DNA of 19,592 nucleotides, taken from a virus. The stretch lies in the IMG/VR virus record IMGVR_UViG_3300045988_050886; one strand, 5' to 3'. How positions within the stretch are numbered: the first letter of the stretch is position 1; each line of letters starts with the position of its first letter. This document shows positions 1 to 19,592 of the stretch, in pieces. The position numbers were made by a program, and so were the translations under genes. The notes beneath the pieces are model-generated. The model was not told the origin of the DNA. It did not search any database and was given only the letters and a program-made list of their open reading frames with translations.

Positions 1-116
1 CAGGAGTGGGAGGGGTATGGATTTGTGTGAAGATTTTCCCTTGTGGTTTTTTTTATTTGTGTATTATTTTTTTTTGTTCTGTGTGGTTTGTGTTTCTTTG
101 TTTTGTTTGTGCCTCT

Positions 117-145
117 ATTATATTTTTTTTACGCCATCATGTCAA
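117..145 (-). promoter_or_regulatory. Outward-facing consensus promoter in ITR-L (TTGACA, 17 nt, TATAAT)
   Basis: The minus strand reads TTGACA (145-140), an exactly 17-nt spacer, then TATAAT (122-117). An A-rich UP-like tract lies upstream. It points at the left terminus, with a predicted start near 110. Confidence 0.6.
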
Positions 146-159
146 TTTTTTTTATTTTC

Positions 160-172
160 GGGCGTGTCGTTT
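160..172 (+). repeat. 13-nt direct repeat GGGCGTGTCGTTT, copy 1
   Basis: Exact copy of 299-311. Both copies follow a T-run. Confidence 0.7.
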
Positions 173-178
173 TTTTTA

Positions 179-193
179 TTGACACTGTGTCAA
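179..193. promoter_or_regulatory. 15-bp palindrome TTGACAC-T-GTGTCAA (operator-like); mirror copy 19400-19414
   Basis: Two 7-nt arms around one central base. It contains TTGACA on both strands, but no matching -10 lies at correct spacing. Confidence 0.35.
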
Positions 194-220
194 TGGTTGT
201 ATGTGCAACAATCTGTGTGT

Positions 221-246
221 GGTTAGGTTACGGTTACGTAACCGTA
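221..246. promoter_or_regulatory. GGTTA direct repeats ending in the 18-bp perfect palindrome TACGGTTACGTAACCGTA; mirror copy 19347-19372
   Basis: GGTTA occurs at 221, 226 and 232, and its inverse TAACC at 239. The perfect palindrome spans 229-246 and lies between the outward and inward ITR promoters. Confidence 0.4.
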
Positions 247-298
247 GCTTATTGGTGGCTGTTGGTTGTTTTTTATTTTTTTGCTTTGTTTTGTTTTT

Positions 299-311
299 GG
301 GCGTGTCGTTT
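299..311 (+). repeat. 13-nt direct repeat GGGCGTGTCGTTT, copy 2
   Basis: Exact copy of 160-172. It occupies the -35 region of the inward extended -10 promoter. Confidence 0.7.
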
Positions 312-320
312 GTTTGTTTG

Positions 321-329
321 TGTTATAGT
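321..329 (+). promoter_or_regulatory. Inward extended -10 promoter in ITR-L (TGtTATAGT)
   Basis: A TGnTATAAT-like element lies about 36 nt upstream of the ATG at 365, and the RBS GGGAAAGGA (347-355) sits in between. There is no good -35. Confidence 0.5.
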
Positions 330-364
330 GTAGTTATCAACTTCAAGGGAAAGGAAAAAATAAA

Positions 365-595
365 ATGTGGTATTTTAATATCACCGCAAACGGTTTTCAG
401 GTTTTTGAGATTTTGCCTGATTGTGTGAAGCCTAGTGGCATGTTTCTTACGGCATCTCTGAAATCTTCGTTGGATGGCGTGCTGTCTTATATCCGTCATG
501 CGTATGTTGGTATGGATGTGGATGTGGATATTGATAATGCTACGTTTGACCTTGATGGCACGATGGTTGGCGTGGTTAAGGTTTCGCTTGTTTGA
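365..595 (+). CDS. Hypothetical early protein, 76 aa (start codon lies inside the ITR)
   Basis: ATG preceded by RBS GGGAAAGGA. Third codon positions are T/G-rich like neighbouring genes. The stop overlaps the next gene region. No recognisable domain. Confidence 0.6.
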   Translation: MWYFNITANGFQVFEILPDCVKPSGMFLTASLKSSLDGVLSYIRHAYVGMDVDVDIDNATFDLDGTMVGVVKVSLV

Positions 596-1658: not shown

Positions 1659-2169
1659 GCGTGGTGATGATAGAATACCTATTTATCGTATGCGCCAGTT
1701 TGATGACGCGATTATGGAGTCGCCGCGTATTGTTAGGGCTACGCTGGGGCGTACTCGCGAACTCAATCTCAAGCGGTATGACGTTGGATATGGCGATTAT
1801 GAGTCGTGTTGCCGTGCTGTCAATATGTTGTGTGAGTTGTGGCGTGAAGCGCCTAGTGAGTGGTTTACGCAAGCGGTGATTACTGTGTCTCAGATTGCGG
1901 GCGGTCTGACTGTGTGGGATGGACTTTCTGTCGCCCTGTCCCGCACGTATGATGTGGAATATTTGGATGGTTCTGTGAATCCGCCTAATCTGATTGCATG
2001 GTGTGCTGTTTGTGCGGTCAAGGGCGGTACGTCGTATGATTGTTGCATGATTTTTGATAGTCCTCAAGCGAGGAATCTGATTATTGCCGTGTTTAAAAAT
2101 TTTGACAGACTGGATACGACTCGCTATACTGATAGTGATTTAAAAAAAATCTTACTGCAAGGGAGGTAA
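1651..2169 (+). CDS. Hypothetical early protein, 172 aa
   Basis: Internal ATG of track ORF 1495..2169, with RBS GAGGAA 7 nt upstream. The track N-terminal extension (1495-1650) overlaps the better small ORF 1482..1658 and reads like off-frame sequence. Confidence 0.65.
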   Translation: MFRRGDDRIPIYRMRQFDDAIMESPRIVRATLGRTRELNLKRYDVGYGDYESCCRAVNMLCELWREAPSEWFTQAVITVSQIAGGLTVWDGLSVALSRTYDVEYLDGSVNPPNLIAWCAVCAVKGGTSYDCCMIFDSPQARNLIIAVFKNFDRLDTTRYTDSDLKKILLQGR

Positions 2170-2992: not shown

Positions 2993-3001
2993 TGCTATAA
3001 T
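2993..3001 (+). promoter_or_regulatory. Extended -10 element TGCTATAAT
   Basis: Perfect TGnTATAAT and the same 9-mer as 5508-5516. It lies just after the SSB stop and upstream of hairpin 3024-3049 and the TP gene. Confidence 0.4.
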
Positions 3002-3071: not shown

Positions 3072-4034
3072 ATGTCTCGAAAGCAAAAGCATGTCAAGGC
3101 ACGTCAGGCTGCGCAAGCACGTGCCGCCCGCAATATCAAACAGCTTGGTGCTTACTCCCACTCGAATCTCGCCAAAACCGCGGACAGACAACTAGTCAAC
3201 ATCGCCAAAACGCTGGGTAAGGAGTGGGAACGGCAGAAGAGACAGGCCATAGCGGAAGCGAAAGCAACCCCCTACCGCGCCGCCGCCATCGAAAAACCGA
3301 CAAAGAAAGACTACATGTTCGCCCAGCGTACACCCATCACAGACGCGCAAATTCAGGCGGAGCCGGTGGCGAAGCGACGCAAACTCTTACGGCAACAGCA
3401 ACGGAAAATCAATGCGGCGCGGCGGAAAATCAACGAATGGAACAAGGCTCAGGCCATGCCCGCGAAAAGCGTATACGATCAACGTGTGGCTGAAATCACC
3501 GGCACCACCGGCGAAGGCTTCGGCCGCACTCAGATTATCCCGTCCAAACTCACTGATTTTCTGCAAATGACCAACGTGCTGAGTGATGAAGCGTTCGTGC
3601 GCTCCCAACTGGAAAGCGGCCACCGCAACGAACTGCTTGAGCAGATTCACGATGCCGCCGAAATACTGGGATTGCGCACCGAACACACAAACAAACCGTC
3701 CAAAAAGCGGGGAACAGGCAAACAGGGTAAAGATCTGTACGGCGAGCATGATTGGCCATCCTATATGAGTCGCGGGCGTTATGAGGTGTTCGAGAAGATT
3801 TTGGCCACCACGCTCGGCTCGAAACGGTTGAAACGATTCCGCCAACTCTCAGCCGCGCAAAAACGCGCGTTCATCGAGCAGACGGATGCCCCGCGCATCG
3901 TGTTCGACTGGACGGTATATGATCCAGTACGGCACGGTTTTATTTCAGTGTTCCGTGACAACAGTGAGGGCTATCAGCGATCCCGCAGACAGTTTGACCG
4001 GTGGTTGGCGGAAGCGGGCGCGTTGGAAAAGTAG
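3072..4034 (+). CDS. Terminal protein candidate (replication primer), 320 aa
   Basis: It lies immediately upstream of the protein-primed DNAP, as in phi29 (gene 3 then gene 2). The N-terminal half is highly basic (KQKHVKARQAAQARAARN, KRRKLLRQQQRKINAARRK). A C-terminal DNSEGY (Ser298, nt 3963-3965) resembles my recollection of the phi29 priming-serine context DSEG. Confidence 0.5.
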   Translation: MSRKQKHVKARQAAQARAARNIKQLGAYSHSNLAKTADRQLVNIAKTLGKEWERQKRQAIAEAKATPYRAAAIEKPTKKDYMFAQRTPITDAQIQAEPVAKRRKLLRQQQRKINAARRKINEWNKAQAMPAKSVYDQRVAEITGTTGEGFGRTQIIPSKLTDFLQMTNVLSDEAFVRSQLESGHRNELLEQIHDAAEILGLRTEHTNKPSKKRGTGKQGKDLYGEHDWPSYMSRGRYEVFEKILATTLGSKRLKRFRQLSAAQKRAFIEQTDAPRIVFDWTVYDPVRHGFISVFRDNSEGYQRSRRQFDRWLAEAGALEK

Positions 4035-4063: not shown

Positions 4064-5515
4064 ATGACCAAGCTAGATAACAGGGTGGGATTGTGGTGTG
4101 CGGATAACGTCATACGATTCACGGACGGCACCGCATTGCGTGACATTACAGCGCCTAACCTCCTTTTGGCGTCCATCATGTCGGGCGGCAAACTCACCGT
4201 CTACGTGACTCATCCCGGACTGCTTGACCCTTTTATAGCGCACGTCGTACACGCATTGCCCCACAACGAACACAACGCTAATCTGAGCTGGGACGCCATC
4301 ATCTCGAAAAAAGGGAAATTTTTCAGCTTCACGGCACGTATCGACCGCGAAAACTCGGCACGCTTCTTCGATATTTCCAATCTTTTGCGTGAGAATTGCA
4401 GTCTCACCATGACCGACACGCAATTGCTCAATATTCTGCGTGAGTATGATAATCGCAACTTGTGCAAGATCACGGCGGGCGGGGCGAGTATGGAGGCTTT
4501 CGCGTCCGGCGAGTGGAAATGGTATTACGACAAATTCCCCCAGCTGGAACCCGAAACTAAAAAGTCATTGCATGACGCCTATATCGGCGGTTTCATGCTG
4601 GTCAAAGAGGGGGCGTATGACAGGGCTATCGACGTTGACTGCAACTCAATGTATCCGAGCATATTACGGGACGAATGGTTGCCGTGGGGCGAACCGGAAT
4701 CATACGACGGTGAATACATCCAAGATGATGACATGCCATTGCATTGCGACGAACTCACGTTTCGCGCGGAACTCAAACCAAACGGCTACCCTTTTTTGCT
4801 CGACAACCGCAGCGTCTACGGACTGAACCGTCTCACCTCAACCCGTGGATACGTCACGCGCGTGCTTACCGACATTGATCAAGAACTGCTTTATAGGAAT
4901 TATGAAGTGAGCGTCTACAAGCATGTTAGGGGGTGGAAATTCCGGCAAAGCAAGGGCTTTTTTCGGTCGTTCGTGGATGAATGGGGAGACTTGAAACAGA
5001 AGACGACGGGCGAAAAAAGACAAATGGCGAAACTGATCATGAACGCCCTGGTGGGGAAAATGGCGAGTCTGCCAAAAGGCACCGTCCTACTCCCCTTATC
5101 CAAAGACGGCATAACATTGGACTGGGACGTCGCCCAGCGCGAAGAATCGAACCTGAAAACCGATTTCCTACCCGTGCCCGTGTGGGTCAACGCCTACGCA
5201 CGCCGCAAACTCATGGACGTGTGCCACGCGAACGCCGATCGGCTATTGTACGCGAACACGGACGGTTGTATTTTGAGCGGTTGGGAGCCGGTGGAATCAT
5301 GCGACATACACCCGACCGAACTAGGCAAGTGGAAAATCGCCGCACGATACGAAAAACTGACGATATTGGGCATGAACCGGTATCAGGGATGGCGGGACGA
5401 CGGGGAGGTTGACGTATGCATGGCCGGAAACCTATTCTCGCAACCCATCCCCTACGAGAAGTTTAGGCATGGAACGCAGATCATGGACGATTACGGTACA
5501 ATGGTCATGCTATAA
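4064..5515 (+). CDS. Protein-primed family-B DNA polymerase (phi29 gp2-like), 483 aa
   Basis: Motif A DVDCNSMYPS, motif B KLIMNALVGKM, motif C YANTDG, and LGKWKI. The blocks ITAGGASMEAF, AYIGGF, LPWGEP, MPLH and ELKPNGYP are collinear with phi29 DNAP as I recall it. Confidence 0.92.
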   Translation: MTKLDNRVGLWCADNVIRFTDGTALRDITAPNLLLASIMSGGKLTVYVTHPGLLDPFIAHVVHALPHNEHNANLSWDAIISKKGKFFSFTARIDRENSARFFDISNLLRENCSLTMTDTQLLNILREYDNRNLCKITAGGASMEAFASGEWKWYYDKFPQLEPETKKSLHDAYIGGFMLVKEGAYDRAIDVDCNSMYPSILRDEWLPWGEPESYDGEYIQDDDMPLHCDELTFRAELKPNGYPFLLDNRSVYGLNRLTSTRGYVTRVLTDIDQELLYRNYEVSVYKHVRGWKFRQSKGFFRSFVDEWGDLKQKTTGEKRQMAKLIMNALVGKMASLPKGTVLLPLSKDGITLDWDVAQREESNLKTDFLPVPVWVNAYARRKLMDVCHANADRLLYANTDGCILSGWEPVESCDIHPTELGKWKIAARYEKLTILGMNRYQGWRDDGEVDVCMAGNLFSQPIPYEKFRHGTQIMDDYGTMVML

Positions 5516-5516
5516 T
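5508..5516 (+). promoter_or_regulatory. Extended -10 element TGCTATAAT overlapping the DNAP stop codon
   Basis: Perfect TGnTATAAT. The predicted start is at A5521 or G5523. No ORF with an RBS follows. Confidence 0.5.
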
Positions 5517-5520
5517 TGTC

Positions 5521-5693
5521 ATGTCTTGTGAGCGTCGATTTTCGACTGGGAGCAACATGGGTCGGATTGCCACGGCTGAAAACGCCGCCGACCGTGAAAA
5601 TCACTATCGTGGCGGTAGTGCCCTACGATTTTCACTTCGCGCTCTGATAGGACAGTCAGACCTCCGCGTGATTGCGGAGGTCATTTTATTTTT
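5521..5693 (+). ncRNA. Candidate structured ~170-nt ncRNA (pRNA-like packaging RNA hypothesis)
   Basis: Bounded by the extended -10 (5508-5516) and an intrinsic terminator (5659-5693). A closing helix pairs 5523-5525/5530-5534 with 5640-5644/5651-5653. Hairpins lie at 5534-5546, 5560-5593 (GGTCGG/CCGACC with inner CGGC/GCCG) and 5594-5635 (9-bp GTGAAAATC/GATTTTCAC plus ACTA/TAGT). Internal-loop GCCA (5569-5572) is complementary to loop TGGC (5610-5613). ORF 5521..5709 has no RBS and runs through the terminator. Confidence 0.5.
5659..5693 (+). terminator. Intrinsic terminator (GACCTCCGC, loop GTGATT, GCGGAGGTC, then ATTTTATTTTT)
   Basis: 9-bp GC-rich perfect stem, 6-nt loop and a T-rich tail. 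Confidence 0.8.
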
Positions 5694-5701
5694 CCGCCGC
5701 A

Positions 5702-5710
5702 TGATATAAT
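5702..5710 (+). promoter_or_regulatory. Late-operon extended -10 element TGATATAAT
   Basis: Perfect TGnTATAAT directly after the terminator and 38 nt upstream of the scaffold ATG. Confidence 0.55.
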
Positions 5711-5747
5711 TTTAGTGGAAATATTGCCAATCGTAAGGAGCTTTTGC

Positions 5748-6035
5748 ATGGCAGACCCAAACAATGACGGCGAGGAAAACACCACTCCGCCGCCGACCGA
5801 AGAGGAACAGCAGACCGAAACCGTCGATGACGAAGTAAAACCGGAAGAACCGGAGCCGGAACCGGAGCCGAAGCAGGAGCCGGACGTTTCCACTCGACTT
5901 GACGCGATTGAAAAGGAATTGGCCGGACTGAAGGCCATGATGGACACGCTCGGATACAATGACCCCGCACCGTCCGACAATGACGGCGACGGAGACAATG
6001 ACAGCACCGAATCTATCGAAGATTTGTTCGACTAA
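5748..6035 (+). CDS. Head scaffolding protein (phi29 gp7-like), 95 aa, very acidic
   Basis: ATG 5748 lies 7 nt after AAGGAG. The track start at 5715 is a GTG without an RBS. It has a D/E/P-rich N-terminus (PEEPEPEPEP), a short helical core (LDAIEKELAGLKAMMD) and an acidic tail. It lies immediately upstream of the capsid gene. Confidence 0.7.
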   Translation: MADPNNDGEENTTPPPTEEEQQTETVDDEVKPEEPEPEPEPKQEPDVSTRLDAIEKELAGLKAMMDTLGYNDPAPSDNDGDGDNDSTESIEDLFD

Positions 6036-7792: not shown

Positions 7793-7831
7793 AATAGGTG
7801 TGGATAGACTTTATCCACACCTATTATTTTT
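7793..7831 (+). terminator. Intrinsic terminator after the capsid gene
   Basis: 14-bp perfect stem AATAGGTGTGGATA/TATCCACACCTATT, 5-nt loop, then ATTTTT. The next RBS (GGAGGA) follows immediately. Confidence 0.8.
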
Positions 7832-10137: not shown

Positions 10138-11076
10138 ATGAGCAAACGCAATAACGCGCGCAAGGCCGCTCACTGGGACAATCAGAGCGTGCTCGGCTCC
10201 ATGTGGGGCAATTTGAACCTACCTGAAATGCGGCAAAGTCTCCGCATTAACCAGTATATGAAGCTTATCGAAATGCTGGCAGTGAGCCGGTTCAAATGGA
10301 TCAACCTACCCCCGTACATTGATGAAAGATACTTGGAACTGACTCTATTCGAGAACGGGTTGGCCCTCTTCTTCCCCGACAAACGCAAGGGAGTGCATCG
10401 TTTCATGGTCACGTCGGGTAATATCGGCGGAGTCAACAATTATAATAATCCGACGTCGTTCCAGCCGGTTGCCACGAATTACTCGCACCCGCAGGTCGGC
10501 TCGAAGGAATGCGTGCCCATTTGGGATAACCAGCTCAGATGCACCATGATTGACGTCATGTGGAATTATGCCACGCGATTGGCGATTGCCGACCGCGCGC
10601 TCGACGTCAACCTCGACAATATTTCAGTGCCGTTGATCATCGCCACTTCAGAAACCAACAAGCTCACCGCCCAAAACCTAGTGAAGGCGCGTGAGGACGG
10701 CGACCCGTATATTTATACGTACGACTCGGCGGATATCACCGGCATGTTCCAGACGTTCCCCAACGTCACCCCGTTTTTGGCGGATAAGATCATCACCACG
10801 AAAACGCAGATCTGGAACGAACTCGTGAACTATCTTGGTATCGACAACAGCACCACGGAGAAGAAGGAACGGTTGCTTGAGTCGGAAGTCACGGCTGGAA
10901 ACTCACGTACGAACGTGTTCCGCCTGAGCTACTTGAAGGCGCGTCAGCAGGCGTGCGACACGATCAACCGGTTGTGGCCGCAAATGGCCGACTCCGGGAA
11001 ACCTATCGGCATCGAATGGAACGACACCACTTCAGGCGGACTCCTGGACGTTGACGGAAACAAGGAAGAGGAATAA
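10138..11076 (+). CDS. Head-tail connector / portal (phi29 gp10-like, upper collar), 312 aa
   Basis: ATG 10138 lies 8 nt after AAGGA. FKWINLPPYIDERYLE, WNELVNYLGIDNSTTEKKERLLESEV and YLKARQQACDTINRLW match conserved blocks of phi29 gp10 as I recall them. The N-terminus is basic (MSKRNNARK). Confidence 0.9.
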   Translation: MSKRNNARKAAHWDNQSVLGSMWGNLNLPEMRQSLRINQYMKLIEMLAVSRFKWINLPPYIDERYLELTLFENGLALFFPDKRKGVHRFMVTSGNIGGVNNYNNPTSFQPVATNYSHPQVGSKECVPIWDNQLRCTMIDVMWNYATRLAIADRALDVNLDNISVPLIIATSETNKLTAQNLVKAREDGDPYIYTYDSADITGMFQTFPNVTPFLADKIITTKTQIWNELVNYLGIDNSTTEKKERLLESEVTAGNSRTNVFRLSYLKARQQACDTINRLWPQMADSGKPIGIEWNDTTSGGLLDVDGNKEEE

Positions 11077-15463: not shown

Positions 15464-15505
15464 GTGATAGCCATACTCTATACTAAGAGTATGGCTATCA
15501 CTTTT
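15464..15505 (+). terminator. 15-bp perfect hairpin plus TTTT; its 3' arm contains the tail-lysin start codon
   Basis: GTGATAGCCATACTC (15464-15478), loop TATACTAA, GAGTATGGCTATCAC (15487-15501), then TTTT. ATG 15491-15493 lies in the 3' arm. Confidence 0.65.
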
Positions 15506-16702
15506 GCTCAATGGATTGACCAGACAAAAAACCGTTTTTGGGACATGGACGGCGCATACGGCGCACAATGCTGGGACTTGTGGGCGAAATACAGTATGGA
15601 TATGTACGGCATGAGCATACAGGATTGCATCACCCCCACCGGCTATGCGGGCGGCTTGTACACTTCATACCCCGTGTCCGCACGGTGCGAACAAGTGTAC
15701 GAACGCATCCCCGCAAATGGATACTCGCCAGTAGCAGGAGACGTGGCAATATGGGGATATAACACGTATACTCCCTATACGCACGTGGCGATAGTCGCGG
15801 CAGATGGCGTAAAAGACGAGCAGATCTACGTTATCACCCAGAACCCCGACGCCAGCGCGTTGAAATTGTTTCCCACCATTGGACTGTTAGGCTACTTGCA
15901 TCCCCGTACCATGCTTAAGCCGGACACCAATAATCCGACCGGCGACAACAACCAGGGCAACCCCGACACGTCACGCGGGGGAGCGTGGATACATTGGCAG
16001 GGCGACAACCTCTACTTGCACGAGACAGACAATGCCGGGACTCGGACACGCATCTTTTACCGTACTACGGCCAATAATTTTTCCGAAAAAGCGTCCCGAT
16101 CCCAGCCGTCAGACTCGCAAGGACAGGGGCACCCGTCCAGCTCGGTCAGTACGGAAAACTCGTACGCGCTCTATGTGGTTGGCACGGTTGAGTCCGGTTT
16201 GCGCTGGGATGCAGTCGAAGCCGCCAATTTGCAAGGTATCGGCATTGCGCAATGGAGTTTCGAGCGCCGCCTGCAAGTGCTCAACGCGATGAAAACCGCC
16301 GACCCAACCGGATATGAGGCATTCAAAACCGCCGCGCCTGGAATAGCCGCGCTCATGGAGTCGGGCGGAACGTTCAAACGTTCACTCACCTCAGCGGAGG
16401 CGGCCGCATTCCGCACGTGGGCGGCACGCAATGAGTCGCGTGACGGGCAACGCAACCAGTTCGCGGAGGACTATGCGGGCTATCCTAAAGAGTATGCCGA
16501 CGCGAAAATGCAGATTCTTTGGGTGACGGCATACCACCAGTCACCCGCGAATGCGTTGAAGGTGCCGAAGGCGTCGAACCTCGCACAGCTCAAAAGCAAC
16601 ATTCTGAGCACGTTCCCGTTCGGCCCGTACACGAATCGATACAATCAGGCATATTCGTTGCTGAGTGTGTGGGATGGAAAATCTAATCCGCCAACGTTCT
16701 AA
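15491..16702 (+). CDS. Tail-associated peptidoglycan hydrolase (phi29 gp13 analogue): N-terminal CHAP plus C-terminal lysozyme-like domain, 403 aa
   Basis: CHAP signature DMDGAYGAQCWDLW with catalytic Cys, and a downstream YTHVAIV. The C-terminal VESGLRWD...GIGIAQWSFERR resembles the phage tail-lysozyme (gp13 N-terminal type) pattern. A Gly/Asn/Pro linker separates the domains. The start is chosen by N-terminal alignment with endolysin 18284. Confidence 0.75.
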   Translation: MAITFAQWIDQTKNRFWDMDGAYGAQCWDLWAKYSMDMYGMSIQDCITPTGYAGGLYTSYPVSARCEQVYERIPANGYSPVAGDVAIWGYNTYTPYTHVAIVAADGVKDEQIYVITQNPDASALKLFPTIGLLGYLHPRTMLKPDTNNPTGDNNQGNPDTSRGGAWIHWQGDNLYLHETDNAGTRTRIFYRTTANNFSEKASRSQPSDSQGQGHPSSSVSTENSYALYVVGTVESGLRWDAVEAANLQGIGIAQWSFERRLQVLNAMKTADPTGYEAFKTAAPGIAALMESGGTFKRSLTSAEAAAFRTWAARNESRDGQRNQFAEDYAGYPKEYADAKMQILWVTAYHQSPANALKVPKASNLAQLKSNILSTFPFGPYTNRYNQAYSLLSVWDGKSNPPTF

Positions 16703-16831: not shown

Positions 16832-17899
16832 ATGACATTGCAGACGCTTGACGAGGGCGATTATTACGATCTGCATAATCTGTTGACGCGAAACGCCCCA
16901 TGGAATTTCATAATCGGCGCACGCGGCCTAGGCAAAACGTTCGCCGCGAAACGGTATGGCATCAAAGAATACATCAAGCACGGTCACGAGTTCATTTATC
17001 TACGCCGTACCGATGTGGAACAGCACCGCAAGGAAACGTTTTTCAAGGACATTCAAGAGTTCTTCCCATCCTACGAGTTTCGAGTCAACGGCGAAAAAGG
17101 GCAATTGCATAAGACGTCATGGGACGAGAAGGACTGGAGGACATGCTGTTATTTCGTCGCCCTCTCCCAAGCAGGCGGATTGAAATCAGTCGCCTACCCT
17201 AAAGTGCACTTGATTATCTTCGACGAAATATTCCCCGACAATCTGCGCTTCTTAAGCAATGAGGTAAACTCGTTTTCCGAGTTTTACAATACGGTTGACC
17301 GTTGGCAGGATAGAACAAAAGTTCTATTCTTGTCGAACGCTGTTCAAAAGGCTAATCCGTATTTCGCTAAATACCGACTTGACATTGGCGCACAGCAAGC
17401 CAACCAACAACAATACAAGTTGTATTGCGGGGGGTTCGTATGTCTCGAACTGGCCGACTATGGCGGCTTCTCAGCAAAAGTCGCACAATCCAAGTTCGGC
17501 AGATTCCTTGAGCAATACGACGGGGATTATGCCGACTATGCGATCAGAAACAAATTCCGCGACGAATCAGACACGTTACTAGCACCTATACCGAGCGACG
17601 GCGAACTCTCCTACGTGCTGGACACTACCGACTACGCGCGGTTTGGGATATGGGTAAGCGTGTCCGAACGCGACGGACATGTTTCACAATATGTTTCACG
17701 GCGCATACCCAAAGACAACAATCGCCCCGTCTACACGCTCGACCCCAATCATGTTGACGAAAAAACATGGTATGTTAAAAAATCAGATGATATTATACGC
17801 CGACTCACCGCCGGCTACCGACTTGGAAAAATACGGTTCGACGACTCACAAGTGAAAGCCGACTTTGGATTAATCATAGGAGAACTACTAGGAAAGTAA
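16832..17899 (+). CDS. DNA encapsidation ATPase (phi29 gp16-like), 355 aa
   Basis: Walker A IIGARGLGKTF, Walker B HLIIFDE, plus FIYLRR and FLSNAVQKANPYF. These are collinear with phi29 gp16 as I recall it. Confidence 0.9.
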   Translation: MTLQTLDEGDYYDLHNLLTRNAPWNFIIGARGLGKTFAAKRYGIKEYIKHGHEFIYLRRTDVEQHRKETFFKDIQEFFPSYEFRVNGEKGQLHKTSWDEKDWRTCCYFVALSQAGGLKSVAYPKVHLIIFDEIFPDNLRFLSNEVNSFSEFYNTVDRWQDRTKVLFLSNAVQKANPYFAKYRLDIGAQQANQQQYKLYCGGFVCLELADYGGFSAKVAQSKFGRFLEQYDGDYADYAIRNKFRDESDTLLAPIPSDGELSYVLDTTDYARFGIWVSVSERDGHVSQYVSRRIPKDNNRPVYTLDPNHVDEKTWYVKKSDDIIRRLTAGYRLGKIRFDDSQVKADFGLIIGELLGK

Positions 17900-18988: not shown

Positions 18989-19228
18989 TTACCACATGAA
19001 CGCTTCAATATCCTCAGCAGAAAACAGGAATGGGCGATCATCTGTCTCATAAGGCAAAATGAATTGATAAGAATCATACAAGGCCACGCCGTAATCATCA
19101 ACGGCCTGATCACGATCAATCGAACTCGTAACACCGTCCTTGACACCATGAAGCGTCACAGACGGGTCATCCCACAAAGTGGTCAGCAGTTCATTCTTTC
19201 CCTTGAGCGCCATATTTGAAACCATCAT
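18989..19228 (-). CDS. Acidic early protein, 79 aa (start codon lies inside ITR-R)
   Basis: It is the only - strand gene and uses the ITR copy of the promoter, RBS and ATG. It has about 17 Asp/Glu against 5 Lys/Arg. No recognisable domain. Confidence 0.6.
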   Translation of the reverse strand: MMVSNMALKGKNELLTTLWDDPSVTLHGVKDGVTSSIDRDQAVDDYGVALYDSYQFILPYETDDRPFLFSAEDIEAFMW

Positions 19229-19263
19229 TTTATTTTTTCCTTTCCCTTGAAGTTGATAACTAC

Positions 19264-19272
19264 ACTATAACA
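19264..19272 (-). promoter_or_regulatory. Inward extended -10 promoter in ITR-R (mirror copy)
   Basis: Reverse complement of 321-329. It would drive the - strand gene 18989..19228. Confidence 0.5.
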
Positions 19273-19447
19273 CAAACAAACAAACGACACGCCCAAAAAC
19301 AAAACAAAGCAAAAAAATAAAAAACAACCAACAGCCACCAATAAGCTACGGTTACGTAACCGTAACCTAACCACACACAGATTGTTGCACATACAACCAT
19401 TGACACAGTGTCAATAAAAAAAACGACACGCCCGAAAATAAAAAAAA

Positions 19448-19476
19448 TTGACATGATGGCGTAAAAAAAATATAAT
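19448..19476 (+). promoter_or_regulatory. Outward-facing consensus promoter in ITR-R (TTGACA, 17 nt, TATAAT)
   Basis: TTGACA 19448-19453, spacer TGATGGCGTAAAAAAAA (17 nt), TATAAT 19471-19476. It points at the right terminus. Confidence 0.6.
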
Positions 19477-19592
19477 AGAGGCACAAACAAAACAAAGAAA
19501 CACAAACCACACAGAACAAAAAAAAATAATACACAAATAAAAAAAACCACAAGGGAAAATCTTCACACAAATCCATACCCCTCCCACTCCTG

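What the first reader, a model, noticed from the sequence alone, without database searches (positions are those of the whole stretch)
5508..5693. Promoter- and terminator-bounded ~170-nt structured RNA after the polymerase gene: candidate pRNA-like packaging RNA
A perfect extended -10 (TGCTATAAT, 5508-5516) overlaps the DNAP stop codon. It is followed about 150 nt later by a textbook intrinsic terminator (5659-5693). The only ORF in between (5521..5709) has no RBS and runs through the terminator. By eye the transcript folds into a terminal helix (5523-5534 with 5640-5653) that closes three hairpins at 5534-5546, 5560-5593 and 5594-5635. A 4-5-nt complementarity links an internal loop (GCCA, 5569-5572) to an apical loop (TGGC, 5610-5613). 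That could be a pseudoknot or an intermolecular kissing contact. phi29-family phages need a ~120-174-nt pRNA ring on the connector to power the gp16 ATPase. In phi29 the pRNA gene has its own promoter downstream of genes 2 and 1, in the same orientation as the early operon. That is the same relative position seen here. This genome has clear gp10 and gp16 homologues, and the connector has a basic N-terminus (MSKRNNARK) like the RNA-binding N-terminus of phi29 gp10. pRNAs diverge too fast for sequence recognition, so this would be a new pRNA class if confirmed.
Basis: partly seen in the sequence, partly recalled or inferred. Interest (0 to 1): 0.8.

Follow-up and report, generated by a model that had tools for sequence, protein, structure and literature searches.

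The report
pRNA-like RNA in Bifidobacterium phage
Right after the DNA polymerase gene of this phi29-like Bifidobacterium phage lies a conserved non-coding RNA whose fold matches, helix for helix, the "prohead RNA" that Bacillus phage phi29 needs to pack its DNA, an RNA reported so far only from Bacillus-type phages.

Summary
The window is a complete phi29-like podovirus genome, about 80% identical to Bifidobacterium phage BP1. An extended -10 promoter (5508-5516) overlaps the polymerase stop codon. It is followed by a 131-nt structured RNA (5523-5653), a strong intrinsic terminator (5659-5693) and a second extended -10 promoter (5702-5710). The 62-codon ORF is not conserved. The RNA lies directly after the polymerase gene in all 142 relatives matched (polymerase identity down to 58%). 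Covariation is heavy: 31 of 46 pairs change on both sides, and G-U pairs place it on the + strand. The consensus fold has a long terminal helix, a three-way junction, an arm with a 5'-only 7-nt bulge under a 4-bp capped helix, and a 7-bp hairpin with a 5-nt loop. The last four bulge bases (GCCA) pair with the last four loop bases (UGGC), and this pairing covaries in at least three clades. Helix sizes are 22/9/4/7 bp, against 22/9/4/6 in phi29 pRNA. Rfam's pRNA model does not match. More distant Bifidobacterium and Arthrobacter phages carry similar RNAs. Best reading: a new class of packaging RNA. Function is untested, and a late-operon leader role is the main rival.

The parts
4064..5515 (+). 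Protein-primed-type DNA polymerase gene. The RNA gene starts at its stop codon.
   Evidence: ORF of 483 aa. Matches phrog_1907 DNA polymerase at E = 1.1e-40. Annotated as DNA polymerase in BP1.
5508..5516 (+). Extended -10 promoter TGCTATAAT with no -35 element. The inferred transcription start is about G5523, the first base of the terminal helix.
   Evidence: Sequence. Motif enrichment. TG-N-TAT(A/G)AT is kept at the same distance from the helix start in all 97 distinct homologs, and also in the L150-type and BadAztec-type relatives. The start site is inferred from the usual spacing, not measured.
5523..5550 (+). 5' strand of the long terminal helix (helix A). Segments: 5523-5529, 5530-5535, 5537-5544 (with a UUU/UUU mismatch block) and GGG 5548-5550. 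C5546 and U5547 are near-invariant unpaired bases.
   Evidence: Pair counts (helices 1-4). Of the 22 pairs, 14 change on both sides. Conserved unpaired bases.
5556..5596 (+). C/E arm. C helix: 5556-5558/5594-5596 plus 5560-5565/5588-5593 (9 bp, with a 1-nt bulge at G5559). E helix: 5573-5576/5584-5587 (4 bp). E loop: 5577-5583, UGAAAAC (consensus UGARAAY).
   Evidence: helices 5, 6 and 8: 9 of 13 pairs change on both sides. Loop bases U5577, G5578, A5579, A5581 and A5582 are at least 97% conserved.
5566..5572 (+). CE bulge AUUGCCA, present on the 5' side only. Its last four bases, GCCA (5569-5572), are complementary to the D loop.
5597..5601 (+). Junction strand AAAAU between the C and D helices (phi29 has UUU here).
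5602..5620 (+). D hairpin: 7-bp stem 5602-5608/5614-5620 and 5-nt loop GUGGC (5609-5613). Loop bases UGGC (5610-5613) pair with the CE bulge.
   Evidence: helix 9: all 7 pairs change on both sides and 99.4% of cells are paired. Loop pairing helix 7.
5621..5653 (+). 3' strand of helix A. It starts with no unpaired base after the D hairpin (CCC 5621-5623).
5659..5693 (+). 3' hairpin and U tract, an intrinsic terminator. The loop sequence GUGAUUG is conserved although the stem covaries. It may correspond to pRNA domain II.
5702..5710 (+). Second extended -10 promoter, TGATATAAT, for the late (structural) genes. The first of these starts at ATG 5749.
   Evidence: CATGATATAATTT is conserved in the alignment.
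10138..11076 (+). Portal (phi29 gp10-type upper collar connector) with the basic N-terminus MSKRNNARK. This is the inferred docking partner.
   Evidence: phrog_2038 at E = 5.7e-55. N-termini compared.
16832..17899 (+). phi29 gp16-type packaging ATPase (355 aa). This is the inferred partner of helix A.
   Evidence: phrog_2150 at E = 8e-60. About 30% identity to the gp16 proteins of Bacillus phages.

Best explanation
The region encodes a non-coding RNA of about 170 nt: a 131-nt folded domain plus a terminator hairpin. It is the counterpart, in Bifidobacterium phi29-like phages, of the phi29 prohead (packaging) RNA.

Shown here:
- It is a conserved, non-coding, + strand RNA structure.
- It has its own promoter-like and terminator-like signals.
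- Its architecture matches phi29 pRNA, including a covarying bulge/loop pairing.

Inferred mechanism:
- It is transcribed from the extended -10 promoter at the polymerase stop codon and stopped at the terminator.
- Several copies join head to tail through GCCA(bulge)-UGGC(loop) pairs into a ring on the portal of the empty prohead. The basic portal N-termini and the conserved E loop would make the contacts.
- The long terminal helices project outward and dock the gp16-type ATPase that pumps the terminal-protein-capped DNA into the head.
For: Context:
- The window is a complete phi29-like genome with 367-bp inverted terminal repeats. It encodes a protein-primed-type polymerase, a gp10-type portal, a lower collar and a gp16-type ATPase.

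Non-coding, + strand:
- The ORF frame is open in only 34 of 97 distinct homologs, and 34 have stops in all three frames.
- G-U pairs number 326 against 43 A-C.

Conservation:
- A covariance model hits once per genome, 8-10 nt after the polymerase gene. It hits all 80 IMG/VR relatives, the unannotated record MT836241, BP1, BD811P1 and 59 metagenome contigs.

Covariation:
- On a MAFFT alignment made without any structure, 17 pairs change on both sides, against 8.6 +/- 1.5 in shuffles and 4-10 in slid controls.
- On the wider model-based alignment the figures are 31 of 46 pairs, against 17.6 +/- 2.0 and 7-11.

Loop-loop pairing:
- GCCA/UGGC occurs 60 times, G-U intermediates 6 times, and ACC(A/G)/UGGU 7 times. 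A-C never occurs at that position.
- The A-U state sits in at least three separate clades of the polymerase tree.

Architecture against the Rfam consensus of phi29 pRNA:
- Helix A is 22 pairs in both. The C helix is 9 bp with a 1-nt bulge in both. The E helix is 4 bp in both.
- The CE bulge is 7 nt here and 9 nt in phi29, and is on the 5' side only in both.
- The E loop is 7 nt here and 6 nt in phi29.
- Both have 13 contiguous paired bases on the 3' side of the arm.
- The D stem is 7 bp here and 6 bp in phi29. The D loop is 5 nt in both.
- There is no unpaired base between helix D and helix A in either.
- In both, the last 4 bulge bases pair with the last 4 loop bases.
- One narrow descriptor of these features hits exactly once in phi29 (its pRNA) and once in the window, and gives no hit in 200 shuffled genomes.
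- The tree-edit distance to phi29 pRNA is 36, below all 967 background windows (minimum 52).

More distant relatives:
- RNAs at the same site in more distant Bifidobacterium phages have bulge (G)AAACC and E loop UUGACU or UUAAGU. phi29 has ...AAACC and UUGAGU.
- In four Arthrobacter phages, RNAalifold on its own returns the same topology.

Portal:
- The portal N-termini are basic, as in phi29.
Against: - The Rfam pRNA model RF00044 gives no match even at E <= 10 on a 400-nt stretch, while it finds phi29 at 145 bits and B103 at 50 bits.
- There are no expression, prohead-binding or packaging data.
- The fourth position of the loop pairing is mismatched in 9 of 90 distinct sequences.
- In the L150-type, BadAztec-type and Arthrobacter relatives the 3' hairpin has no U tract, and the first late gene starts 25-30 nt later with no second promoter. 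There the RNA is probably co-transcribed with the late genes, which also fits a leader role.
- The single-sequence minimum-energy fold differs from the consensus model in the D region (-46.2 against -40.7 kcal/mol).
- The descriptor and the model were drawn up after seeing both RNAs, and the descriptor misses the B103 pRNA.
- Sequence alone cannot tell intermolecular from intramolecular pairing of the loops.
Confidence: 0.72

Rival explanations
1. The RNA is a cis-acting 5' leader of the late (structural) operon. The folded RNA and the hairpin after it would control read-through or translation of the late genes, for example as an attenuator or a protein-binding leader, and would not be part of the packaging motor.
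For: - The element always sits at the early/late boundary, just upstream of the first late gene.
- In the L150-type, BadAztec-type and Arthrobacter phages the 3' hairpin lacks a U tract. The late gene's ribosome-binding site follows within 25-30 nt, and no promoter lies between them.
- The loop of the 3' hairpin (GUGAUUG) is conserved beyond what termination needs.
Against: - In the window-type clade the RNA ends at a strong U-tract terminator, and the late genes have their own conserved extended -10 promoter.
- The detailed match to pRNA (helix lengths, 5'-only bulge, covarying bulge/loop pairing, E loop UUGANU in relatives) has no explanation under this model.
- No Rfam leader or riboswitch family matches.
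- The two roles are not exclusive: a pRNA could be cut from a late transcript.
Confidence: 0.13
2. The RNA is a trans-acting phage small RNA with some other job, such as gene regulation, host takeover or anti-defence, and only happens to share a three-way-junction shape with pRNA.
For: It is bounded by a promoter and a terminator, is non-coding, and has conserved loops.
Against: - Conservation lies in helix geometry and in two mutually complementary loops, not in one accessible seed.
- It co-occurs with gp10- and gp16-type motors across Bifidobacterium and Arthrobacter phages.
- Its sizes match pRNA closely.
Confidence: 0.09
3. The region is only the 3' untranslated end and terminator of the early (polymerase) operon, and the extra structure has no function of its own.
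For: No terminator lies between the polymerase gene and the RNA, so early transcripts must run through it.
Against: 131 nt upstream of the terminator are kept by compensatory changes in polymerase lineages down to 58% identity. Analogous folds occur in lineages at 32-46% identity. A dedicated promoter motif is conserved.
Confidence: 0.04
4. The 62-codon ORF 5521-5709 encodes a small protein.
For: The ORF exists in the window.
Against: - The start codon is not conserved.
- The frame is open in only 34 of 97 homologs, and indels that are not multiples of three are common.
- There is no ribosome-binding site and no PHROG match.
- Substitutions follow base-pairing, not codons.
Confidence: 0.01

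Closest known systems
phi29-family prohead/packaging RNA (pRNA; Rfam RF00044) of Bacillus phages phi29, B103 and relatives
   Same: - The host genome type is the same: protein-primed polymerase, gp10-type portal and gp16-type ATPase.
- The gene lies downstream of the polymerase gene on the same strand.
- Overall size is similar: domain I is 131 nt here and 117 nt in phi29, and the full RNA is about 170 nt here and 174 nt in phi29.
- Helix A is 22 pairs in both, there is a three-way junction, the C helix is 9 bp and the E helix 4 bp in both.
- The bulge is on the 5' side only, the D loop is 5 nt, and the last 4 bulge bases pair with the last 4 loop bases.
- A 3' extra hairpin follows.
   Different: - There is no detectable sequence or covariance-model similarity.
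- The RNA is G+C-rich (54% against 41%).
- The junction strands are longer (5-8 and 5 nt, against 1 and 3).
- The E loop is 7 nt and the bulge 7 nt (against 6 and 9).
- Helix A has a UUU/UUU mismatch block and asymmetric loops instead of phi29's CCA bulge.
- The gene abuts the polymerase stop codon in the middle of a single-orientation genome, instead of lying at the left genome end.
- The host phylum is Actinomycetota, not Bacillota.
'packaging RNA' misc_RNA annotated in the GenBank record of Actinomyces phage Av-1 (NC_009643, 16295-16402)
   Same: It is the only earlier claim I found of a pRNA in a phi29-like phage of an actinobacterium.
   Different: - That stretch overlaps ORFs on the other strand.
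- It folds no better than shuffles (z = +0.53).
- It is not matched by RF00044 or by my models.
- It lies at the right genome end.
It gives no support for the present RNA and is not related to it.
Structured RNAs at the same early/late boundary in the L150-type contigs, Bifidobacterium asteroides phages (BadAztec, BadAargau) and Arthrobacter phages (Mendel, Swim, Tillums, Anjali)
   Same: - They share the position.
- The L150-type and BadAztec-type RNAs have an extended -10 promoter at the polymerase stop.
- They have a long terminal helix, a C/E arm with a 5'-only bulge, a 4-bp E helix, a D hairpin or loop complementary to the bulge, and a 3' hairpin.
   Different: - They are too diverged for my covariance models to reach.
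- They have 6-nt E loops of the form UUGANU or UUAAGU, as in phi29.
- They have no U tract after the 3' hairpin and no second promoter.
- None is annotated as an RNA.
Phage leader RNAs that act on the transcribing polymerase (for example HK022 put); recalled from general knowledge, not tested
   Same: They are promoter-proximal structured RNAs upstream of terminators and of late or delayed genes.
   Different: put is about 70 nt with two stem-loops and no three-way junction or loop-loop pairing. Nothing here was found to resemble it.

Membership tests
phi29-type prohead RNA (pRNA) | Encoded by a phi29-like phage that has a gp10-type portal and a gp16-type packaging ATPase | tested here: met
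   phrog_2038 upper collar connector at 5.7e-55. phrog_2150 terminase (gp16-like) at 8e-60. Protein-primed-type polymerase. 367-bp terminal repeats.
phi29-type prohead RNA (pRNA) | Match to the Rfam covariance model RF00044 at or above its gathering score (100 bits) | tested here: not met
   No match at the gathering score. No match at E <= 10 on 5400-5800 or on the L150 homolog. Positive controls: phi29 at 145.4 bits and B103 at 50.2 bits. Known pRNAs share only about 12% sequence identity (PMC5066667), so this speaks against membership of the Rfam family as built. It does not speak against the RNA working like a pRNA.
phi29-type prohead RNA (pRNA) | Secondary structure: long helix A, a three-way junction, a C/E arm with a bulge loop on the 5' strand, and a D stem-loop | tested here: met
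   Covariation-supported consensus. Sizes are 22/9/4/7 bp against 22/9/4/6 in phi29. A shared descriptor gives a single hit in each genome and none in 200 shuffles. Tree-edit distance is 36 against a background minimum of 52. Caveat: an alternative local hairpin at 5534-5546 is not excluded.
phi29-type prohead RNA (pRNA) | Watson-Crick complementarity between the CE (right-hand) bulge and the D (left-hand) loop, kept by covariation | tested here: met
   GCCA/UGGC, GCCA/UGGU and ACCA/UGGU occur, never A with C. The A-U state is in at least 3 clades. A core of 3 bp is always kept. The fourth pair is broken in 9 of 90 distinct sequences.
phi29-type prohead RNA (pRNA) | The loop pairing is intermolecular and builds a ring of 5-6 RNAs | not testable with these tools
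   Sequence cannot tell a kissing contact from a pseudoknot. The arm lengths equal those of phi29, which is compatible with a ring.
phi29-type prohead RNA (pRNA) | A discrete non-coding transcript of about 120-174 nt with its own promoter | tested here: inconclusive
   The region is non-coding. A conserved extended -10 promoter and a terminator bound about 170 nt. No transcript data were available.
phi29-type prohead RNA (pRNA) | Binds the prohead/portal, is required for DNA packaging, and is absent from mature virions | not testable with these tools
   Only indirect support: the portal N-terminus is basic, MSKRNNARK, against MARKRSNTYR in phi29.
Intrinsic terminator / 3' UTR only | Conservation limited to a G+C-rich hairpin plus a U tract | tested here: not met
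   131 nt upstream of the terminator are conserved with 31 covarying pairs.
Small protein gene | Conserved open frame, start codon and ribosome-binding site | tested here: not met
   The frame is open in 34 of 97 homologs, the start codon varies, and there is no ribosome-binding site.

The most novel reading that the evidence does not exclude
Prohead RNA is not a peculiarity of Bacillus phages. It would be an ancestral part of the phi29-type packaging motor that survives in phages of a different bacterial phylum (Bifidobacterium, Arthrobacter). In most of these lineages it would be made as the 5' part of the late transcript, with the conserved 3' hairpin acting as a partial terminator or processing site. 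Synthesis of the motor RNA would then be coupled to expression of the structural genes.
Probability: 0.35. Interest if true: 0.85.

Novelty: new variant of a known kind. Interest (0 to 1): 0.78.

Why it matters
Reviews state that pRNA is known only from phi29 and related Bacillus phages, and that its role and origin are unresolved (PMC5066667; PMC11476376). A 2025 covariance-model survey added only further Bacillus and Cytobacillus phages (PMC12670572).

- **Evolution.** A structurally equivalent RNA in actinobacterial phi29-like phages would show that the RNA-dependent motor is old and widespread. It would also give an independent, highly diverged set of sequences for separating the essential features (arm lengths, loop pairing, E loop) from the incidental ones.
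- **Annotation.** It would explain a roughly 230-nt unannotated gap present in every genome of this abundant human-gut phage group.
- **Applications.** It would offer new G+C-rich three-way-junction modules for RNA nanotechnology.
- **Testability.** BP1, BD811P1-3 and the Arthrobacter phages are in culture, so the idea can be tested directly.

Tried and rejected
- **Rfam.** I searched the whole window at the gathering scores, 5400-5800 at E <= 10, and the L150 homolog. I found only chance minus-strand matches (isrJ at E = 0.54, FsrA at E = 6.5) and no pRNA match.
- **Reach of my covariance models.** Models R1 and R2 do not reach the L150-type, the BadAztec-type, Av-1, Mendel, Reje or phi29, even with filters off. 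Homology with those RNAs therefore rests on position, motifs and fold.
- **Loose descriptor.** A loose structural descriptor gave roughly 15-25 loci per genome and was useless. Only the narrow one was specific, and it misses the B103 pRNA.
- **BadAztec inner fold.** RNAalifold's own inner fold for the BadAztec group was set aside in favour of a C helix with two fully compensated pairs. The D hairpin there is invariant and unproven.
- **Av-1.** The annotated 'packaging RNA' shows no fold signal. The Av-1 region after the polymerase holds only a short hairpin plus a terminator.
- **Reje.** The intergenic gaps of Curtobacterium phage Reje show only terminators.
- **Terminator loop.** I considered pairing of the loop GUGAUU with AAUCAC (5599-5604). 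The partner is not conserved, so I dropped it.
- **Coding and minus strand.** A coding reading and a minus-strand reading were both rejected.
- **More relatives.** IMG/VR scans for further L150-type and BadAztec-type relatives returned almost nothing new.
Full report
**What the window is.** The 19,592-bp window is a complete linear phage genome.
- It has perfect 367-bp inverted terminal repeats, and all of its large genes are on the + strand.
- PHROG profiles identify an SSB, a phi29-type DNA polymerase (4064-5515), a major head protein, a tail protein, a gp10-type upper collar connector (portal), a lower collar/adaptor, a gp16-type packaging ATPase (16832-17899), a holin and endolysins.
- Its nearest cultured relative is Bifidobacterium phage BP1, at 80.6% nucleotide identity over 80% of the genome. 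In BP1, and in BD811P1, the equivalent roughly 230-nt stretch between the polymerase gene and the next gene carries no annotation.

**Checking the observation.** The stated features are there.
- TGCTATAAT lies at 5508-5516 and overlaps the polymerase stop codon.
- TGNTATAAT occurs three times in the window, all on the + strand and all in front of gene blocks (2993, 5508, 5702). About 0.42 occurrences are expected by chance.
- The terminator at 5659-5693 has a 10-bp stem with 7 G-C pairs, followed by ATTTTATTTT.
- Region 5521-5693 folds 4.3 standard deviations better than dinucleotide shuffles. The reverse strand also folds well, so folding energy alone does not give the strand.

**It is not a protein gene, and it is on the + strand.**
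- Among 97 distinct homologous sequences, the frame of ORF 5521-5709 is open through the RNA core in only 34, and 34 have stops in all three frames. The codon aligned with the ATG is ATG in only 22.
- In the consensus structure there are 326 G-U cells against 43 A-C cells. That excess is expected only if the + strand is the folded one.

**Conservation.**
- A scan of IMG/VR with the polymerase protein gave 80 contigs. All of them, plus BP1 and the unannotated record MT836241, carry the region at 74-96% identity.
- A metagenome scan with a polymerase alignment gave 68 more loci, spanning 93% down to 31% polymerase identity.
- Covariance model R1, built from the first set, hits 59 of these 68 loci. 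Each hit starts 8-10 nt after the end of the polymerase match, and the hits reach down to 58% polymerase identity. R1 also hits BD811P1, and it hits only once in the window.

**Structure from covariation.**
- I first used a plain MAFFT alignment with no structural information (A1). The model has 92.7% of cells paired. Seventeen pairs change on both sides, against 8.6 +/- 1.5 in column shuffles and 4-10 when the partners are slid by 1-3 columns.
- I then used the wider model-based alignment (A4: 100 sequences, 90 distinct). Here 93.1% of cells are paired. Thirty-one of 46 pairs change on both sides, against 17.6 +/- 2.0 in shuffles and 7-11 in slid controls. This alignment is fitted to the model and so leans towards it. 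The earlier, independent alignment gives the same answer.
- The supported fold is as follows:
  - Helix A pairs 5523-5529 with 5647-5653, 5530-5535 with 5639-5644, 5537-5544 with 5626-5633, and GGG 5548-5550 with CCC 5621-5623. In the window the 5537-5544 segment holds a UUU/UUU mismatch block. That block becomes Watson-Crick pairs in diverged relatives such as L148, L139 and L145.
  - The C helix pairs 5556-5558 with 5594-5596 and 5560-5565 with 5588-5593.
  - A 7-nt bulge, AUUGCCA (5566-5572), lies on the 5' strand only.
  - The E helix pairs 5573-5576 with 5584-5587. Its 7-nt loop has the consensus UGARAAY.
  - The linker AAAAU follows.
  - The D hairpin pairs 5602-5608 with 5614-5620 and has the loop GUGGC.
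- In the window sequence this model scores -40.7 kcal/mol, against -46.2 for the minimum-energy fold. The minimum-energy fold pairs the D region differently, and the comparative data decide for the model.
It is broken in L139. It also fails to explain the compensated C5543-G5627 to U-A change, which the long-range helix does explain.

**The loop-loop contact.** GCCA (5569-5572) is the 3' end of the bulge. UGGC (5610-5613) is the last four bases of the 5-nt D loop.
- Across the 90 distinct sequences the combinations are:

| Bulge / loop | Count | Note |
|---|---|---|
| GCCA/UGGC | 60 | |
| GCCA/UGGU | 6 | G-U at position 1 |
| ACCA/UGGU | 6 | A-U at position 1 |
| ACCG/UGGU | 1 | |
| GCCG/UGGC | 5 | G-U at position 4 |
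| GCUA/UGGC | 3 | |
| GCCU/UGGC | 6 | mismatch at position 4 |
| GCCU/UGGU | 1 | mismatch at position 4 |
| GCCA/CGGC | 2 | mismatch at position 4 |

- An A at the first position is never found opposite a C.
- On a neighbour-joining tree of the adjacent polymerase, the A-U state appears in at least three places. These are L139; L137 with L138, whose sister L148 has G-C; and L077 with L079, whose sister L080 has the G-U intermediate. L131 carries it as well.
- So a core of three pairs is under selection. The fourth pair is dispensable, as is reported for phi29, where NMR sees two G-C pairs (PMC5066667).

**Comparison with phi29 pRNA.** RF00044 finds the phi29 pRNA (145 bits) and, weakly, that of B103 (50 bits). 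It finds nothing in the window, L150, BadAztec1 or Av-1. The RNA is therefore not a member of that Rfam family as built. The architecture, however, is nearly the same as the Rfam consensus structure:

| Feature | phi29 pRNA | This RNA |
|---|---|---|
| Helix A | 22 pairs | 22 pairs |
| C helix | 5+4 bp with a 1-nt bulge | 3+6 bp with a 1-nt bulge |
| CE bulge (5' side only) | 9 nt | 7 nt |
| E helix | 4 bp | 4 bp |
| E loop | 6 nt | 7 nt |
| Contiguous paired bases on the 3' strand of the arm | 13 | 13 |
| C/D junction | UUU | AAAAU |
| D stem | 6 bp | 7 bp |
| D loop | 5 nt | 5 nt |
| Unpaired bases between D and A | 0 | 0 |
| Loop contact | last 4 bulge bases with last 4 loop bases | same |

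- A single narrow descriptor of these features hits exactly once in the phi29 genome (its pRNA) and once each in the window, BP1, BD811P1, L138 and L148. It gives no hit in 200 shuffled genomes. I wrote it after seeing both RNAs, and it misses the B103 pRNA, so it measures resemblance rather than testing it blindly.
- The tree-edit distance between the phi29 structure and the consensus model is 36. That is smaller than for the minimum-energy structure of any of 967 other 131-nt windows of this genome (minimum 52, median 110). The window's own minimum-energy fold sits at the 5th percentile.

**More distant relatives.**
- Contigs L150, L158 and L159 (polymerase about 46% identical) and the Bifidobacterium asteroides phages BadAztec and BadAargau with five honeybee-gut contigs (31-32% identical) have an extended -10 motif at the polymerase stop. 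A structured RNA with the same layout follows.
- Their bulge is (G)AAACC or AGACC, their E helix is CGUA/UACG, their E loop is UUGACU or UUAAGU, and their D loop is GUGGU. phi29 has the bulge GAUUAAACC and the E loop UUGAGU.
- In the BadAztec group a pRNA-like model is 99% paired, with 8 compensated pairs, two of them in the C helix. The D hairpin and the loop contact there do not vary, so they are unproven.
- Arthrobacter phage Mendel has a strongly folding gap (z = -5.8) between an RHH gene that follows the polymerase gene and the first late genes.
- RNAalifold on Mendel, Swim, Tillums and Anjali returns the same topology without any guidance. It gives a long helix A, a 5+4-bp C helix, a 6-nt 5'-only bulge, a CCCC/GGGG E helix with the loop UUGAAU, a 3-nt junction, and a D hairpin that abuts helix A. 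The last four bases of the bulge and of the D loop are both AGCU, which is self-complementary. A 3' hairpin follows. Twelve of 51 pairs are compensated.
- I found nothing comparable in Av-1 or in Curtobacterium phage Reje. The 'packaging RNA' annotated in the Av-1 record has no fold signal.

**Transcription signals and the main rival.**
- In the window-type clade the order is always the same: extended -10, RNA, hairpin with loop GUGAUUG plus a U tract, a second -10-like promoter, then the late genes. This holds even at 58% polymerase identity, while the hairpin stem covaries. There the RNA is its own transcription unit. It is also the 3' end of early transcripts.
- In the L150-type, BadAztec-type and Arthrobacter lineages the 3' hairpin has no U tract, and the late gene follows within about 25-30 nt with no promoter between. 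There the RNA is probably the 5' part of the late transcript.
- That arrangement keeps alive a reading in which the element is a late-operon leader. It is also compatible with a pRNA released by partial termination or by processing. phi29 pRNA itself is trimmed from 174 to 120 nt (PMC5066667).

**Other indirect points.**
- The portal N-termini of the phages that carry the RNA are basic: MSKRNNARK in the window, MGKRNKARK, MGRRNNARK and MSRRNAKRE in the others, against MARKRSNTYR in phi29. Those of Av-1 and Mendel are not. Mendel therefore does not fit this correlation.
- The near-invariant unpaired bases are C5546 and U5547 with U5624 and A5625 (an asymmetric loop in helix A next to the junction), five E-loop bases, and the D loop. 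By analogy with the CCA bulge and E loop of phi29, these are candidate protein contacts. This is inference only.

**What is known.** Reviews from 2016 and 2024 state that pRNA is known only from phi29 and related Bacillus phages (PMC5066667; PMC11476376). A 2025 Infernal survey added 12 candidates, among Salasvirus phages and a Cytobacillus phage. It mentions no Bifidobacterium, Actinomyces or other non-Bacillus host (PMC12670572). The paper describing BP1 does not mention pRNA (PMC12694917).

**Verdict.** A conserved, non-coding, + strand structured RNA is certainly present. Its best explanation, at about 0.7 confidence, is a new and highly diverged class of prohead/packaging RNA. Its function is untested.

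Noticed in passing
window 1-367 and 19226-19592: The genome has perfect 367-bp inverted terminal repeats. Each copy holds a perfect consensus promoter (TTGACA-17-TATAAT; 19448-19476 on + and 145-117 on -) that points outward, towards the genome end.
   Followed up: partly
window 5668-5674 (loop of the terminator hairpin 5659-5682): The loop sequence GUGAUUG is kept in all window-type homologs and in the L150-type contigs, although the stem around it covaries freely. That is more conservation than a terminator needs, so it may be a binding site or a counterpart of pRNA domain II.
   Followed up: partly
L162 (Arthrobacter phage Mendel) 4934-5090 +; L164, L165 and L166 61-230: An unannotated structured RNA lies between the RHH gene and the first late genes. 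RNAalifold gives a pRNA-like fold with E loop UUGAAU and a self-complementary AGCU in both the bulge and the D loop. Twelve of 51 pairs are compensated.
   Followed up: partly
L150 3714-3896; L084 12680-12856 (-); L085 13051-13228 (-); L152-L156: More distant Bifidobacterium-phage lineages carry an RNA at the same site. It has bulge (G)AAACC, E hairpin CGUA-UUGACU/UUAAGU-UACG and D loop GUGGU, which resemble the phi29 pRNA motifs. The 3' hairpin has no U tract, and the late gene starts about 25-30 nt later.
   Followed up: partly
L086 (Actinomyces phage Av-1) 16295-16402: The GenBank record annotates a 'packaging RNA' here. The stretch folds no better than shuffles (z = +0.53), overlaps ORFs on the other strand, and matches neither Rfam's pRNA model nor my models.
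   Followed up: yes
window 2993-3001: A third extended -10 motif, TGCTATAAT, lies just upstream of ORF 3072-4034. That 320-aa ORF has no PHROG match and sits before the polymerase gene, so it may be the terminal protein. A near-consensus divergent promoter pair lies at 2102-2130 (+) and 1823-1796 (-).
   Followed up: no
window 15464-15501 and 7793-7825: Two long perfect hairpins. One has 16 bp and overlaps the start of the endolysin-like ORF 15464-16702. The other has 15 bp plus a T run and lies after the major head gene, where it is probably a terminator.
   Followed up: no
window 5534-5546: UCGA-UUU-UCGA can form a local hairpin that competes with the long-range helix A pairing. Both get some comparative support, so a conformational switch is possible.
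   Followed up: partly
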